DNA of 34,930 nucleotides, taken from the NCBI GenBank assembly GCA_028690725.1, contig JAQVAR010000002.1:1-34930 (forward strand). Direction: 5' to 3'. This stretch comes from Candidatus Iainarchaeum sp. (GTDB taxonomy: Archaea > Iainarchaeota > Iainarchaeia > Iainarchaeales > JAAZKV01). Position 1 is the stretch's first letter; each line of letters begins with the position of its first letter. The translations under genes were made by a program, and so were the position numbers. Below are positions 1,476 through 19,809 of this stretch, piece by piece. A model generated the notes under the pieces. The model searched no databases and was not told where the DNA came from. It saw only the letters and a program-made list of their open reading frames with translations.

Positions 1476-1581
1476 CTAAAAGAAAGCTAGTTATTAAGTA
1501 TTTTAAAGCTTTTCTAATGCAAATTTTATTGAAGAATAGCAAAGCAAATCTTTAATTAAATTATTGGAAAAAATTATTTTT

Positions 1582-1670
1582 GGGCGGGTAGCTTAGTGGT
1601 GGAGCACTCGACTGATATCGTTAAAACGATAGTAATCGAGCGGTCACGAGTTCAAGTCTCGTCCTGCCCA
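1582..1670 (+). tRNA. tRNA-Ile(GAU) with a 17-nt intron after position 37
   Basis: Acceptor GGGCGGG/CCTGCCC, D stem GCTT/GAGC, anticodon stem CTCGA/TCGAG, loop C-T-GAT-A. Intron is TCGTTAAAACGATAGTA. T arm ACGAG-TTCAAGT-CTCGT, discriminator A. Confidence 0.85.
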
Positions 1671-1736
1671 TTTTAATTCCAAAATTAAAATTGCAAAAGT
1701 ATAATAACTAATTTTGACTAATTTTAATGATAAAAA

Positions 1737-16251: not shown

Positions 16252-16722
16252 TTAATCAATTCTTTTTGCTGAAAAATCATTTTGTTTTTCATCAAAATCT
16301 ATTTTAACACCTTTTAAAAAACGTCTAACCTTTTCATTTATCACAATTTTAAAACCTTTTTCCAAAATTATTTCATCACTAAATTTTTTATTAGTAGTAT
16401 TGAAATCAAAACCACCAAAAATAGGAAAAATTCTAATATATTTATTATTACTCTCATTTAACTTTTGTTTCAGTTTAGAAAATGCTTTTTTAGTAAAATC
16501 AAAATCTGGTAAAGAATCAAATTTTTTAATCTGTTCATTTGCTTCTTTAATCAAATTATCAATTTCTTTGGCATTTAAACTGTGTGCTTTACAACCATCT
16601 TCAATTGATTCCATTGCAGAAACATGACAACTAGCACAATGCAAACCAAATTTAACTAAAATAGGACTAACTTCTGGAAAATTATCTACTACTTCCTTTA
16701 AATTATCTTTTTTATCAATCAT
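16252..16722 (-). CDS. DUF1858 (hybrid-cluster-protein-associated redox disulfide) domain protein with a HesB/IscA-like C-terminal domain
   Basis: The N-terminus (VVDNFPEVSPILVKFGLHCASCHVSAMESIEDGCKAH) matches the DUF1858 CxxC pattern. The C-terminus (IRIFPIFGGFDF...IDFDE) resembles the HesB/IscA fold but has no Cys ligands. Confidence 0.6.
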   Translation of the reverse strand: MIDKKDNLKEVVDNFPEVSPILVKFGLHCASCHVSAMESIEDGCKAHSLNAKEIDNLIKEANEQIKKFDSLPDFDFTKKAFSKLKQKLNESNNKYIRIFPIFGGFDFNTTNKKFSDEIILEKGFKIVINEKVRRFLKGVKIDFDEKQNDFSAKRID

Positions 16723-16821: not shown

Positions 16822-17019
16822 TTACTTACTAACCTTTTTTATTTTTTTTAAAATTAAATTTTTTTGCTTTCTACTAGTAAAAGTTTTTCCAAACCTTACT
16901 AAAATAGGATTAATATTATTCCATTTATTTTTAGGAAAAAAATTCTTCAAATCTTCTTCAATCTTTCTTGTATTTTTATTTTTTGTCCAACCAAGTTTTC
17001 TTGAAATATAAAAAACATG
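16822..17019 (-). pseudogene. relic 3' fragment of an endonuclease III-like gene (65 codons plus stop, no start codon, no 5' part)
   Basis: Minus-strand translation is HVFYISRKLGWTKNKNTRKIEEDLKNFFPKNKWNNINPILVRFGKTFTSRKQKNLILKKIKKVSK*. It aligns colinearly with residues 140-203 of the intact gene at 18056..18667. By hand count about 36 of 64 positions are identical. Homology stops abruptly 5' of the His codon. Confidence 0.75.
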
Positions 17020-17056
17020 ACATAATAATAAAAGTATTTTGGATTAAAATATTTTA

Positions 17057-18055
17057 ATGAATGAAATAACTCTTGAAAAACTTAACAAAAAATCAACTAA
17101 AATAAGAGTTGAACTTAATAAAGATTTCTTGAAAAAATTAATGAATAAAGCATCAAATTCTAATCAACCACACACAAAAAACCAATTTATTAAAAAACTT
17201 GAACTTAAAAAATCTAATAAATATTGTTGTTCCACAATATATAGTTGGATGTATCATAATAACACAATTCCATTAGATAAACTAGGAATAATAGTAAAGG
17301 TATCTAAAACAGACTGGAAAATAGTTAATAAACTGCCAACTACCTTAAAATCTGGTTTTAGAGGCACTAAAATTAATCTTCATTTCCCAATAAAAGTAAA
17401 TGAGGAGCTTGGATCAATTGTCGGGCATATATTGGGAGACGGATCAATAGACAATAAATATCAACAAGTCTTTTATTCAAATTCAAACAAAGACTTATTA
17501 AGAGAATTTTCTAAAAATATGAAAAAAGTATTTAACACCAAACCACGCATATGGATGCAAAAAACAGCTACTTTTGAAGGGCAAACAAGATGGGAAAAAA
17601 GATTAAATTCAATAAATGAGTTAAAACATAAAAGAAACTGCGGATTATTTTATCCAACAATTTGTGGAGTGATATTAAATAATTATTTTGGAACTTTTGC
17701 AATTGGAAAAAACAAGAAAATAACCAACGAAATAATTAATTGCCCAAAAGAATTTAAAAAAGGATTTGTACGTGCATTTTACGATGATGAATGCACAATT
17801 GGGGACAAAAGTATTAGAGTTTTTCAAGACCAATATGAAATTCTAAAAGAAATAAAAAATATGTTAATTGAATTTGAAATACTCTCACAACCAATTAAAA
17901 CAACTATTAAAAAAAATAAAGAAAGATTTTATTTTGATATATTTAGAAAAAGTAATTTAAAATTGTTCTATTCAAATATTGGGCTTATTTCGTCACAAAA
18001 AAAGAAAAAATTAAAAAAAATAGTAAATAAAAAACCACATGGGAACGACAAATAA
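17057..18055 (+). mobile_element. free-standing double-motif LAGLIDADG homing endonuclease gene
   Basis: 332 aa with two LAGLIDADG-type motifs (IVGHILGDGSID and FVRAFYDDECTI) about 120 aa apart. An N-terminal extension of about 110 aa precedes them. Its stop TAA (18053-18055) directly abuts the stop of the convergent nth-like gene. Confidence 0.85.
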
Positions 18056-18667
18056 TTATTTTATTTTTTTAATACAATCTAAAATCTTATTTTTCTCTTT
18101 TCTATTAGTATAAGACTTACCAAAACGCACAACAACAGGGTTTACTAATCGCCAATAATTTTTAGGAAACAAATTTTTTAAATCCCGTTCAATCACAACG
18201 GGGTTTTTATGTTTACTCCAATTTAAATATTGCGACACGTAACTTAGATGCGTATCCACCCCAATAGTATCTTTTCCTTTTTCCGACAAAAAAACATTAG
18301 CGGTTTTTCTTCCCACCCCTGGCAAATTAATTAATTTATTAAAATCCATTGGAACTTTGCAATCATAATCTTTTAACAAAATTTTGGCACAATTAATAAC
18401 GTTTTTTGCTTTTGTTTTATTATAATTAAGACTCTTAAAAACTTTTAGAACATCAAAATAATTTGCTTTAGAAAGTTTTTTTAAAGTAGAATATTTTTTA
18501 AACAAAGAATTCGCAACAATAATAGTTGTCTCATCCCTTGATTGAGCAGACATTATTATAGAAACTAATATTTTCCAATCAGAATCCCATTCCTCTGCAG
18601 CAAGACGCATTTTTAAAGATTTTTTTCTCAAAAATTCTAACTGTAATAACACTTTTTTTTTATCCAT
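18056..18667 (-). CDS. nth: endonuclease III-like HhH-GPD DNA glycosylase without the C-terminal 4-Cys iron-sulfur cluster loop
   Basis: 203 aa. The HhH-GPD motif LPGVGRKTANVFL includes the catalytic Lys position, and the GVDTH Asp motif is present. The C-terminus lacks a CX6CX2CX5C cluster. Confidence 0.85.
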   Translation of the reverse strand: MDKKKVLLQLEFLRKKSLKMRLAAEEWDSDWKILVSIIMSAQSRDETTIIVANSLFKKYSTLKKLSKANYFDVLKVFKSLNYNKTKAKNVINCAKILLKDYDCKVPMDFNKLINLPGVGRKTANVFLSEKGKDTIGVDTHLSYVSQYLNWSKHKNPVVIERDLKNLFPKNYWRLVNPVVVRFGKSYTNRKEKNKILDCIKKIK

Positions 18668-18780
18668 AAAAACACTATTTTTAATTATTTATTTTCAATT
18701 AAATTGTTAACCAATTCATTTTTTTCCATAAAATAATTTGAAACAAGGCTCTTTTAATTTTTCCTAAAAACAATATTTTA

Positions 18781-19548: not shown

Positions 19549-19646
19549 AGAGATTAATTATATTAATTGGTTTGAATTCCAAACTAGTAATAATTAATTA
19601 TTAATGAAAATTAATGGTTACAGATGCATATTAAAGGTATGTGAAA

Positions 19647-19723
19647 AGAACAAGGGGTGTAATCTGGTCCGGTTTGGACTTCTATCCCAACAGATAGTAT
19701 TTGTAAGACACCCCCTCTGTTCC
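19647..19723 (+). ncRNA. unassigned GC-rich nested-stem element (candidate small RNA or 5' regulatory RNA)
   Basis: Pairings seen: GAACA(19648-52)/TGTTC(19718-22), GGGGTGT(19654-60)/ACACCCC(19708-14), ATCTG(19662-66)/CAGAT(19691-95), GTCC(19667-70)/GGAC(19676-79). A T7 run lies at 19731-19737 and a TATA-like TATTAAA at 19629-19635. The strand assignment is tentative. Confidence 0.35.
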
Positions 19724-19809
19724 AAAAAGCTTTTTTTATAAAAATCATTTTTTTTCTTTTTGAAAAGGTTTTTTAAAACAAAGCTTTCTTATTGTTTTGG
19801 TGATAATTT

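What the first reader, a model, noticed from the sequence alone, without database searches (positions are those of the whole stretch)
16822..18667. Homing-endonuclease cassette inserted at the VDTH motif of an endonuclease III-like gene, carrying a replacement 3' end and stranding the native one
Three observations fit one model.
1) The nth-like gene (18667 to 18056, minus strand) ends stop-to-stop against a convergent double-motif LAGLIDADG gene (TAA at 18053-55, TTA at 18056-58, zero spacer).
2) A start-less open frame lies 37 nt beyond the other end of the endonuclease gene (17019 to 16822, minus strand). It encodes a second, colinear copy of nth residues 140-203, with about 36 of 64 residues identical by hand alignment. 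Shared blocks include EDLKN, FPKN, NP and VRFGK, and the stop falls within one or two residues of the same alignment position.
3) Homology begins exactly at the His of the conserved catalytic GVDTH motif. Upstream of it the relic reads SKIFLLLC, unrelated to KDTIGVDT.
The in-use copy of this segment uses many G/C-rich codons (ACG, GTG, TCG, CCC, CGG, CGA, CGT). The relic uses the AT-rich codons typical of the rest of the window.
The simplest reading is a 1231-bp cassette (17020..18250). It comprises a foreign nth 3' end plus an antisense homing endonuclease gene, and it invaded a conserved site of the host gene. The insertion keeps the host gene intact, presumably makes it cleavage-resistant, and displaces the original 3' end.
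From memory, insertions that bring a replacement C-terminus are known for free-standing endonucleases in fungal mitochondrial genes. Archaeal LAGLIDADG enzymes are normally found in inteins or rRNA/tRNA introns. A free-standing one targeting a DNA-repair gene would therefore be unusual.
Basis: partly seen in the sequence, partly recalled or inferred. Interest (0 to 1): 0.8.

Follow-up and report, generated by a model that had tools for sequence, protein, structure and literature searches.

The report
Homing endonuclease cassette replacing nth's end
A selfish endonuclease gene sits inside a DNA-repair gene (endonuclease III) of a tiny DPANN archaeon and keeps that gene whole by bringing its own spare 3' end; the same design recurs in 20 of 23 related archaeal loci examined, although it was previously described only in fungal mitochondria.

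Summary

**In the window**
- The nth-like gene (18667..18056, minus strand) abuts a convergent double-motif LAGLIDADG gene (17057..18055) stop-to-stop.
- A start-less second copy of nth codons 140-203 lies at 17019..16822. It matches the in-use copy at 36/63 residues (E 8e-27), starting at the His of VDTH.

**Comparative evidence**
- A syntenic endonuclease-free relative (L002) has an nth whose 3' end resembles the relic, not the in-use copy.
- An unrelated contig (L001) shares 94% DNA identity with the in-use 3' end and with 57 nt of the endonuclease tail. Its nth 5' part is only 72% identical, and the endonuclease body is deleted.

**Beyond the window**
- All 23 full-length relatives of this endonuclease found in archaeal genomes sit next to an nth gene, and 20 are convergent.
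- 18 of those 20 show a decayed nth 3' remnant. In 16 it starts at the same His codon, 19-62 nt (mostly 37-42) from the endonuclease start, behind a TATA-like box.

**Verdict**
This is a family-wide, splice-free homing cassette. It is a new archaeal variant of the fungal mitochondrial "mobile ORF plus foreign C-terminus" elements. Cleavage activity, the exact target and the immunity of occupied alleles are inferred, not shown.

The parts
18251..18667 (-). Native 5' part of the endonuclease III-like (HhH-GPD, FeS-less) gene, codons 1-139. It includes the HhH motif (GVGRKTA, catalytic Lys121) and VDT of the VDTH motif (catalytic Asp138).
   Evidence: Pfam HhH-GPD 6e-18. Best PDB match is Endonuclease III 9nzc, 9.5e-32. 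It is 77.9% nt identical to the syntenic endonuclease-free L002 and 72.2% to L001. The last about 9 nt (GTG GAT ACG, 18259..18251) are identical to L001 and may be co-converted.
18056..18250 (-). Replacement (foreign) 3' end of nth, codons 140-203 plus the stop codon. It is in frame with the native 5' part and is the copy in use.
   Evidence: It is 94.3% nt identical to L001 but only 65.1% to L002. GC3 is 0.234, in the top 2% of the window's coding 64-codon windows. The full-length hybrid is 203 aa, like its relatives.
17057..18055 (+). Free-standing double-motif LAGLIDADG homing endonuclease gene (332 aa), antisense to nth, with its stop codon abutting the nth stop codon.
   Evidence: Pfam LAGLIDADG_3, two stretches. 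D128 is invariant and E245 at least 90% conserved across 31 relatives. AlphaFold2 pLDDT is 92.6. Foldseek matches TliVMA and PI-PfuI intein endonucleases and I-DmoI, with TM about 0.7 relative to I-DmoI. There are 155 relatives, all in DPANN archaea where a source gives a name.
17020..17056 (+). 37-nt promoter spacer of the cassette. It contains a TATA-like box, ATAATAATAAAAG, at 17022-17034, about 29 nt upstream of the endonuclease ATG.
   Evidence: In 16 related loci the equivalent spacer is 19-62 nt (mostly 37-42 nt) and carries a conserved TTTATATA-like box about 10 nt from the relic His codon. Promoter function is inferred from general knowledge of archaeal TATA spacing.
16822..17019 (-). 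Stranded native 3' end of nth (the relic): codons equivalent to 140-203 plus the stop codon, with no start codon at its 5' end and no promoter of its own.
   Evidence: 36/63 identical to the in-use copy, E 8e-27. It is 72% aa identical and 71.9% nt identical to the 3' part of L002, against 63.5% nt to L001. GC3 is 0.138, near the window median.
17020..18250 (.). The mobile cassette as a whole (1231 bp): replacement nth 3' end, antisense endonuclease gene and promoter spacer.
   Evidence: Direct repeats are spaced 1231 bp apart. The same three-part layout is found in 18 of 20 convergent related loci.
16252..16722 (-). DUF1858 gene, the conserved downstream neighbour of nth. It is the synteny anchor that defines the empty site.
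   Evidence: Pfam DUF1858 3e-14. It lies directly downstream of nth in L002, L004, L149, L001, L010 and L013.

Best explanation
This is a splice-free homing cassette.

**Proposed mechanism**
1. A monomeric two-motif LAGLIDADG endonuclease recognises the highly conserved nth sequence that encodes the catalytic VDTH motif (about GGN GTN GAY ACN CAY GTN ...). It cuts alleles that lack the element.
2. The break is repaired by copying from an occupied allele. The nth 5' part serves as the left homology arm. The displaced 3' end (or the downstream DUF1858 region) serves as the right arm.
3. What is copied in is a 1.2-kb unit made of three pieces:
   - a replacement nth 3' end that keeps the host gene intact;
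   - the endonuclease gene on the opposite strand, abutting it stop-to-stop;
   - a spacer of about 40 nt that carries the endonuclease's own TATA-type promoter.
4. The recipient's original 3' end is pushed downstream. Without a promoter or a start codon, it decays there.

**What is shown**
- The architecture itself.
- The foreign origin of the in-use 3' end.
- The native origin of the relic.
- An empty syntenic site.
- An allele in which the endonuclease has been deleted.
- Recurrence of the same design across the endonuclease family.

**What is inferred**
- That the enzyme is active.
- That it cuts at or near the D-T-H codons.
- That the relic serves as the downstream homology arm.
- That occupied alleles are immune.
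For: **The window and its two reference alleles**
- Anatomy of the window.
- Recombination breakpoint at codons 137-140. Between the window and L001, nt identity jumps from 72% to 94% and continues 57 nt into the endonuclease gene. Between the window and L002 it drops from 78% to 65%, while the relic stays at 72%.
- Empty site in full synteny (L002).
- Second independent pair, L011 against L148: 87%, 64% and 76% nt for N-part, in-use C-part and relic.

**The family**
- 23 of 23 full-length relatives in GTDB genomes are adjacent to an nth gene, and 20 of 23 are convergent.
- The two stop codons abut with 0 nt between them in 10 of those 20, plus the window.
- 18 of 20 show an nth 3' remnant beyond the endonuclease start. 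These range from full length (L011, L012) to a few codons.
- In 16 of them the remnant begins at (T/C)-His-(V/F), 19-62 nt (mostly 37-42 nt) from the ATG, behind a conserved TTTATATA box.
- Both FeS-less and FeS-type nth genes are hosts.
- Endonuclease distances correlate with nth C-part distances (r = 0.30, p = 0.05) but not with N-part distances (r = 0.06, p = 0.36).

**The enzyme**
- The catalytic acidic residues are conserved and the fold model is confident.
- Truncated members and the deleted L001 allele fit an invasion-decay-loss cycle.
Against: - No cleavage data exist, and the target is reconstructed only from junctions.
- The closest full endonuclease relative is 56% identical. No recent donor of the whole cassette was found, only the L001 footprint.
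- How the occupied allele escapes cutting is unclear. The in-use site differs from the reconstructed empty site at 10 of the first 18 nt after the His codon. However, the simple His-Leu versus His-Val distinction fails in L010 and L013 and in several putatively occupied alleles. His-Leu alleles also occur without any endonuclease (L068, L149).
- The codon-usage contrast is not significant pairwise (p = 0.18).
- The Mantel signal is weak.
- Three family members (L017, L025, L026) lie downstream of nth on the same strand with no relic.
- Long-term conservation of intact ORFs at 45-55% identity could also reflect a host-beneficial role.
Confidence: 0.85

Rival explanations
1. Intergenic 'intronless homing' with an accidental relic. 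In this reading the endonuclease normally lives in the nth-DUF1858 spacer, as phage T4 Seg and Mob enzymes live between genes. It cuts nth nearby and is copied in together with the donor's nth 3' end. The relic in the window is then a by-product of one imprecise (end-joining) repair event. It is not a designed part of the element or its homology arm.
For: L001, L010 and L013 have the endonuclease, or its footprint, directly followed by DUF1858 with little or no relic. The L001 tail aligns with the window's endonuclease 5' end plus spacer, running straight into the DUF1858 ATG (shuffle p about 0.02). Most relics are heavily decayed, so they are poor homology arms.
Against: Remnants starting at the same His codon, at a mostly constant 37-42 nt from the endonuclease ATG, occur in 16 loci. 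Their endonucleases are only 42-60% identical, and the host genes belong to two different nth families. Independent accidents would not produce one conserved junction.
Confidence: 0.08
2. Local tandem duplication of the nth 3' end, followed by unrelated insertion of an endonuclease gene between the copies and by divergence in place. No foreign 3' end is involved.
For: The two copies are colinear, of equal length, and 1231 bp apart.
Against: The in-use copy is 94% nt identical to the copy in L001, whose 5' part is only 72% identical. The relic, not the in-use copy, matches the orthologue in L002. The same asymmetry is seen for L011 against L148. In-place divergence cannot give a 94% match to another lineage.
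Confidence: 0.02
3. A domesticated LAGLIDADG protein (comparable to WhiA) that works with or regulates endonuclease III. On this view its strict linkage to nth reflects function rather than selfish homing.
For: 23 of 23 relatives are next to nth. Intact ORFs persist at deep divergence. WhiA appears among the fold matches. The extra N-terminal domain of 114 aa has only a weak, non-significant resemblance to helix-turn-helix domains.
Against: The distribution is patchy: L002, L149 and L068 lack it. Stranded nth 3' remnants are insertion scars. The catalytic Asp and Glu are retained. A deleted copy (L001) and truncated copies exist. Homing endonucleases score better than WhiA in the fold search.
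Confidence: 0.04
4. A metagenome assembly chimera that joined two strains' nth alleles.
For: The window is a single metagenomic contig.
Against: The same layout appears in about 20 independent assemblies from different studies.
Confidence: 0.01

Closest known systems
Fungal mitochondrial mobile ORF elements (mORFs) that carry a foreign C-terminus: Allomyces macrogynus atp6, Glomus sp. atp6/atp9/cox2/nad3, Rhizopus atp9, Mortierella cox2 (PMC3630166)
   Same: An endonuclease ORF (mostly LAGLIDADG) is inserted into a conserved protein gene together with a replacement 3' end. The native C-terminus is stranded about 1 kb downstream. The native copy is closer to relatives than the inserted copy, so the result is a hybrid gene created by horizontal transfer.
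   Different: Here the host is an archaeal chromosome rather than an organelle. The endonuclease is on the opposite strand with its own TATA-type promoter, instead of in phase with or co-transcribed with the host gene. The target is a DNA-repair glycosylase. The design is fixed across a whole endonuclease family of at least 155 proteins.
Intronless homing by free-standing phage endonucleases (T4 SegF, SegG, MobE; cyanophage F-CphI). From my own knowledge, plus titles and abstracts listed.
   Same: A free-standing endonuclease gene lies next to the gene it targets. It spreads by double-strand-break repair with co-conversion of flanking host sequence, which produces mosaic genes.
   Different: The phage enzymes are GIY-YIG, HNH or EndoVII types that sit between genes and leave no duplicated gene end. 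Here a LAGLIDADG enzyme sits inside the gene and supplies a substitute end.
Archaeal LAGLIDADG endonucleases in inteins and rRNA introns (PI-PfuI, TliVMA intein, I-DmoI, I-Tsp061I)
   Same: These are the best structural matches. They share the monomeric two-motif fold and target highly conserved, active-site-coding or rRNA sequence.
   Different: There is no intein (Hint) domain and no intron. Pfam finds only LAGLIDADG_3, and Rfam finds no intron. The ORF is antisense to the host gene, so neither RNA nor protein splicing can remove it.
'Fractured genes': a free-standing endonuclease gene between split-intein halves (PMC2677866, seen)
   Same: A free-standing endonuclease gene interrupts a conserved gene in environmental prokaryotes, and a device restores host function.
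   Different: In that case function is restored by trans protein splicing of two gene halves. Here it is restored by a spare 3' end, and one half is discarded.

Membership tests
LAGLIDADG homing endonuclease (monomeric, two-motif) | Two LAGLIDADG motifs in one chain | tested here: met
   Pfam LAGLIDADG_3 matches in two stretches. The motifs read ...HILGDGS... and ...FYDDEC....
LAGLIDADG homing endonuclease (monomeric, two-motif) | Conserved acidic catalytic residue at the end of each motif | tested here: met
   D128 is invariant and E245 is at least 90% conserved in 31 relatives.
LAGLIDADG homing endonuclease (monomeric, two-motif) | Alpha-beta-beta-alpha-beta-beta-alpha pseudo-dimeric fold | tested here: met
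   AlphaFold2 pLDDT 92.6. Foldseek matches TliVMA intein endonuclease (1.9e-9), PI-PfuI and I-DmoI (TM about 0.7 relative to the target).
LAGLIDADG homing endonuclease (monomeric, two-motif) | Site-specific cleavage of the allele that lacks the element | not testable with these tools
   Requires an enzyme assay. The target is inferred from junctions only.
LAGLIDADG homing endonuclease (monomeric, two-motif) | Patchy presence at one fixed genomic site, with empty and decayed alleles | tested here: met
   Empty syntenic sites: L002, L149. Deleted copy: L001. Fixed junction in 16 loci.
mORF-type element with replacement C-terminus (fungal mitochondria) | Endonuclease ORF inserted together with a duplicated host 3' end, with the native 3' end left downstream | tested here: met
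   for the window. 18 of 20 convergent related loci show the same.
mORF-type element with replacement C-terminus (fungal mitochondria) | The inserted C-terminus is foreign and the downstream copy is native | tested here: met
mORF-type element with replacement C-terminus (fungal mitochondria) | ORF on the same strand as, and often in phase with, the host gene | tested here: not met
   The endonuclease is antisense and convergent in the window and in 20 of 23 loci.
mORF-type element with replacement C-terminus (fungal mitochondria) | Resides in a mitochondrial genome | tested here: not met
   The host is a DPANN archaeal chromosome: neighbours and relatives are named Pacearchaeota, Woesearchaeota or Nanoarchaeota.
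Intein-borne or intron-borne endonuclease | Embedded in a self-splicing intein or group I/II intron of the host gene | tested here: not met
   Pfam finds no Hint or intein domain. Rfam finds only two tRNAs in the window. The ORF lies on the opposite strand to nth.
Endonuclease III (Nth) / HhH-GPD glycosylase (host gene) | HhH-GPD domain with catalytic Lys in the hairpin and Asp in VDTH | tested here: met
   Pfam HhH-GPD 6e-18. PDB Endonuclease III 9nzc 9.5e-32. K121 and D138 are invariant in the alignment.
Endonuclease III (Nth) / HhH-GPD glycosylase (host gene) | C-terminal Cys-X6-Cys-X2-Cys-X5-Cys [4Fe-4S] loop | tested here: not met
   The motif is absent in the window protein and in all 120 closest relatives. 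It is present in the nth hosts of L015-L020 and L022-L025. The window gene therefore belongs to an FeS-less endonuclease III-like subfamily.

The most novel reading that the evidence does not exclude
The three-part unit (spare 3' end, antisense endonuclease gene, promoter) may be an ancient, self-contained alternative to introns and inteins for invading protein-coding genes in archaea. In this reading it uses the stranded relic as its downstream homology arm. It moves between distantly related DPANN lineages and even between the FeS-type and FeS-less endonuclease III families. L010 supports the last point: it carries an FeS-type relic behind an FeS-less gene. If so, the element would repeatedly swap the C-terminal module of a repair enzyme and would act as a natural marker of DNA exchange among DPANN archaea.
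Probability: 0.35. Interest if true: 0.75.

Novelty: new variant of a known kind. Interest (0 to 1): 0.62.

Why it matters
- **A third route into protein genes.** It shows a way, besides introns and inteins, for a homing endonuclease to occupy the most conserved part of a protein-coding gene without killing it. That route exists in cellular (archaeal) chromosomes, not only in fungal mitochondria.
- **Candidate enzymes with a predicted target.** It provides dozens of natural, compact LAGLIDADG enzymes with a predictable target of roughly 20-25 bp in a universally conserved motif. This is useful for studying how specificity evolves and for meganuclease engineering.
- **A marker of gene exchange.** Nearly identical cassette DNA sits in nth genes whose remaining sequence is only 72% identical. 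This is direct evidence of recent DNA exchange between DPANN lineages, whose gene flow is poorly understood.
- **A caution for phylogeny and annotation.** The nth genes of these organisms are mosaics, so their 3' ends should not be used naively in phylogenies or functional annotation.

Tried and rejected
- **Metagenome scan with an nth alignment.** The conserved GVGRKTANV pattern pulled in hundreds of bacterial nth genes and only one close relative (L068). Occupancy frequency therefore could not be measured. The rough figure of at least 8 occupied among the 119 closest nth proteins rests only on matching contig lengths.
- **Viral contig scan with the endonuclease alignment.** No relatives were found, so there is no sign of a viral vector.
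- **Immunity from a single base.** I tested whether occupied alleles are immune through one G-to-C change after the His codon (His-Val to His-Leu). This was rejected as a general rule: L010, L013 and several putatively occupied alleles keep His-Val, and L068 and L149 are His-Leu without an endonuclease.
- **Sequence search of the endonuclease against PDB.** Nothing significant; only the fold search worked.
- **N-terminal 114-aa domain.** The AlphaFold2 model is confident (pLDDT 92.4), but no PDB fold match is significant (best E 1.6, weakly Cro/C1-like).
- **Possible endonuclease footprint after the L149 stop codon.** Only about 8 nt are shared, which is not distinguishable from chance.
- **Literature searches.** No description was found of a LAGLIDADG or nth element in DPANN or other archaea. 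The library lacks most subscription journals, so absence is not proof.
Full report
**1. What is in the window**

ORF listing and sequence reading give three features:
- a 203-aa ORF on the minus strand, 18667..18056;
- a 332-aa ORF on the plus strand, 17057..18055;
- a start-less open frame on the minus strand, 17019..16822.

The two stop codons of the first two ORFs abut with no spacer. Pfam assigns the first to HhH-GPD (6e-18, with an HhH motif) and the second to LAGLIDADG_3, in two stretches (1.9e-12).

The third frame translates to HVFYISRKLGWTKNKNTRKIEEDLKNFFPKNKWNNINPILVRFGKTFTSRKQKNLILKKIKKVSK*. It aligns without gaps to nth residues 140-202 with 36/63 identities (BLASTP E 8e-27).

At the DNA level, similarity starts at the His codon CAT and is absent upstream. 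The repeat finder reports the two copies as direct repeats spaced exactly 1231 bp apart.

The only slip is that the residues upstream of the relic read SKILLLLC, not SKIFLLLC.

**2. The host**

The closest nth proteins are named Pacearchaeota, Nanoarchaeota, Aenigmarchaeota, Iainarchaeum or simply "archaeon". The window has 25% G+C and carries two tRNAs. The host is a DPANN archaeon.

The nth protein is an endonuclease III-like enzyme. Its best PDB match is Endonuclease III 9nzc (9.5e-32). It lacks the C-terminal four-cysteine iron-sulfur loop, as do all 120 closest relatives. The catalytic Lys121 (GVGRKTA) and Asp138 (VDTH) are present and invariant.

**3. Which copy is native**

*An empty site.* Protein P0003 lies on a 113-kb contig (L002, GCA_964619405.1) with the gene order glutaredoxin - methyltransferase - DinB - nth - DUF1858 - thioredoxin-reductase-like. 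The window has the same order, with the DinB gene missing and the endonuclease plus relic added. L002 is thus an empty site in synteny.

*Codon-aligned DNA identities:*

| Segment | Window vs L002 | Window vs L001 |
|---|---|---|
| N-part (codons 1-139) | 77.9% | 72.2% |
| In-use C-part | 65.1% | 94.3% |
| Relic | 71.9% | 63.5% |

*The foreign copy.* L001 is a 1057-bp contig carrying P0002. Its identity with the window rises abruptly at GTG GAT ACG CAT. It reaches 60/60 in one block and continues past the nth stop codon through 57 nt of the endonuclease 3' end. The endonuclease body is then missing, and the DUF1858 start codon follows. The remaining 40 nt of L001 align with the window's endonuclease 5' end plus promoter spacer (shuffle p about 0.02; suggestive only).

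L001 is therefore an allele that once held the same cassette and has lost most of the endonuclease gene.

*Wider protein comparison.* Among the 20 database proteins closest to the window in the N-part, the relic matches their C-termini better than the in-use copy does in 15.

*A second independent pair.* L011 is occupied and has a full relic. L148 has an N-part 92.8% aa identical to it. The nt identities are N-part 86.8%, in-use C-part 64.0% and relic 75.7%.

*Composition.* This agrees, but weakly. GC3 is 0.234 for the in-use end, in the top 2% of coding 64-codon windows in the window. It is 0.138 for the relic, near the median. The direct comparison gives p = 0.18.

**4. The endonuclease and its family**

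The protein search found 155 relatives, the best only 56% identical. All that carry a source name are from DPANN archaea. An exhaustive search of 50%-identity cluster representatives found 31 clusters at E below 1e-30.

D128 is invariant and E245 at least 90% conserved in 31 relatives. The AlphaFold2 model is confident (pLDDT 92.6). Residues of about 115-325 match archaeal intein endonucleases (TliVMA, PI-PfuI) and I-DmoI, and WhiA less well.

The N-terminal 114 residues form a separate, confidently modelled domain with no significant structural match. No viral relatives were found.

**5. The architecture is shared by the family**

A scan of one genome per GTDB species gave 23 full-length relatives, L005-L027.
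- **Adjacency.** All 23 have an nth-like gene adjacent. In 20 it is convergent.
- **Stop-to-stop spacing.** In 10 of those 20, plus the window, the two stop codons abut with no spacer.
- **Relics.** Reading the nth-sense strand beyond the endonuclease start shows nth 3' remnants in 18 of the 20:
  - full length in L011 and L012;
  - internally deleted or frameshifted in L005, L006, L007, L010, L023 and L024;
  - only a few codons in L008, L009, L013 and L014;
  - iron-sulfur-type remnants in L015, L016, L018-L020 and L022-L024.
- **A fixed junction.** In 16 loci the remnant begins with (T/C)-His-(Val/Phe). The His codon lies 19-62 nt, mostly 37-42 nt, from the endonuclease ATG. A conserved TTTATATA-like box sits about 10 nt from the junction.
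- **Promoter (inferred).** From general knowledge of archaeal promoters, a TATA box about 25-30 nt upstream of a leaderless start would serve the endonuclease. This is an inference.
- **Two host families.** The nth hosts fall into two families that share only about a third of their residues, one FeS-less and one FeS-type. Both share the VDTH-coding motif.
- **Co-variation.** Within the FeS-less host group, endonuclease distances correlate with nth C-part distances (r = 0.30, p = 0.05) but not with N-part distances (r = 0.06, p = 0.36). This is weak, but it points toward a C-part that travels with the endonuclease.

**6. Mechanism**

*Shown:*
- a unit made of replacement 3' end, antisense endonuclease gene and promoter spacer sits between nth codon 139 and the displaced native codons 140-203;
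- the replacement end is foreign and the displaced end is native;
- empty and decayed alleles exist;
- the junction is the same in deeply diverged family members.

*Inferred:*
- The enzyme cuts empty alleles in or next to the D-T-H codons. The junction often reads (A)TACT-CAT on both sides, so the insertion point is ambiguous by about 5 nt.
- Repair copies the cassette from an occupied allele, with nth 5' sequence as the left arm. The right arm is either the donor's relic, which would leave the recipient's own 3' end as the new relic as seen in the window, or the downstream DUF1858 region, which would leave little or no relic as in L001, L010 and L013.
- The conserved junction across the family argues that the relic-bearing layout is inherited rather than a one-off accident.

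*Unresolved:* how occupied alleles avoid being cut.
- In the window, the in-use site differs from the reconstructed empty site at 10 of the 18 nt after the His codon.
- In 9 of 11 FeS-less-host loci, the base after CAY is C or T rather than the G found in all 11 relics.
- L010 and L013 keep G, and His-Leu alleles occur without any endonuclease (L068, L149).

**7. Comparison with known systems**

The closest described analogues are the fungal mitochondrial mobile ORFs. These bring a foreign C-terminus and strand the native one. Examples are Allomyces macrogynus atp6, Glomus atp6/atp9/cox2/nad3, Rhizopus atp9 and Mortierella cox2 (PMC3630166, read).

This case shares the logic but differs in four ways:
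- the genome is an archaeal chromosome;
- the endonuclease is antisense with its own promoter;
- the target is the catalytic motif of a DNA glycosylase;
- the design is fixed across a whole family.

It also resembles phage intronless homing in its co-conversion of flanks. It is not intein- or intron-borne: there is no Hint domain, no intron RNA, and the ORF is on the opposite strand.

Six literature searches found no description of such an element in DPANN or other archaea. The library is incomplete, so this absence is provisional.

**8. Verdict**

The boundaries are refined, and the claim that a free-standing archaeal LAGLIDADG enzyme is unusual is replaced. It is in fact a sizeable, consistently nth-linked family.

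I rate this a new variant of a known kind, of moderate to high interest. Enzymatic activity, target and immunity remain to be demonstrated.

Noticed in passing
L010:3830-3945 (minus strand): The relic behind the endonuclease in L010 is of the iron-sulfur type (…CTARNPKCGGCFLNKKKLC…). Yet the in-use nth of L010 is FeS-less and 64% identical to the window's N-part, and the locus keeps DUF1858 next door. This suggests either a jump between nth families or carry-over of an older relic.
   Followed up: partly
L001:769-866: L001 keeps 57 nt of the endonuclease 3' end (about 95% identical to window 18055..17999) and possibly its first codons plus the promoter spacer. These run directly into the DUF1858 ATG. 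It looks like an internal deletion of about 930 bp of the endonuclease gene, with no relic.
   Followed up: partly
window 18668-18780: The window has only 113 nt between nth and the methyltransferase gene. L002, L149 and L013 have a DinB/IMS (Y-family polymerase) gene there, and L001 retains its 3' trace. The DinB gene is absent at this position in the window.
   Followed up: no
window 18056-18667 (5' part 18251-18667): The native 5' part of nth also has raised GC3 (0.20, against a mean of 0.138 for long ORFs in the window). This may reflect earlier rounds of co-conversion or a gene-specific bias.
   Followed up: no
window 1581-1671: The tRNA-Tyr call is 91 nt long with a reported anticodon of 'ata'. 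It probably contains an intron or the anticodon is mis-assigned.
   Followed up: no
window 19575-19800: The intergenic stretch between the methyltransferase and glutaredoxin genes has 32-34% G+C, against 25% for the window. It has no Rfam match above noise.
   Followed up: partly
L006, L009 (beyond the endonuclease start); L017:5090-5500: An Ogg2-like glycosylase gene (…ELCFCILTANS…) flanks the endonuclease in three loci. In those genomes the cassette therefore sits between two base-excision-repair genes.
   Followed up: no
L017, L025, L026: In three of the more divergent family members (34-42% identical to the window's endonuclease), the endonuclease lies downstream of an FeS-type nth on the same strand. 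No relic was detected. This may be a different or ancestral arrangement.
   Followed up: partly
window 17057-17398 (endonuclease residues 1-114): A conserved extra N-terminal domain is modelled confidently (pLDDT 92) but has no significant structural relative. Its resemblance to Cro/C1-type helix-turn-helix domains is weak. It may extend DNA recognition.
   Followed up: partly
L068:1630-2238; L149:3001-3618: These endonuclease-free nth alleles carry the His-Leu-Ser-Tyr type of 3' end that several cassettes also carry. They may be former hosts that lost the element, or the natural source of that 3' end.
   Followed up: partly
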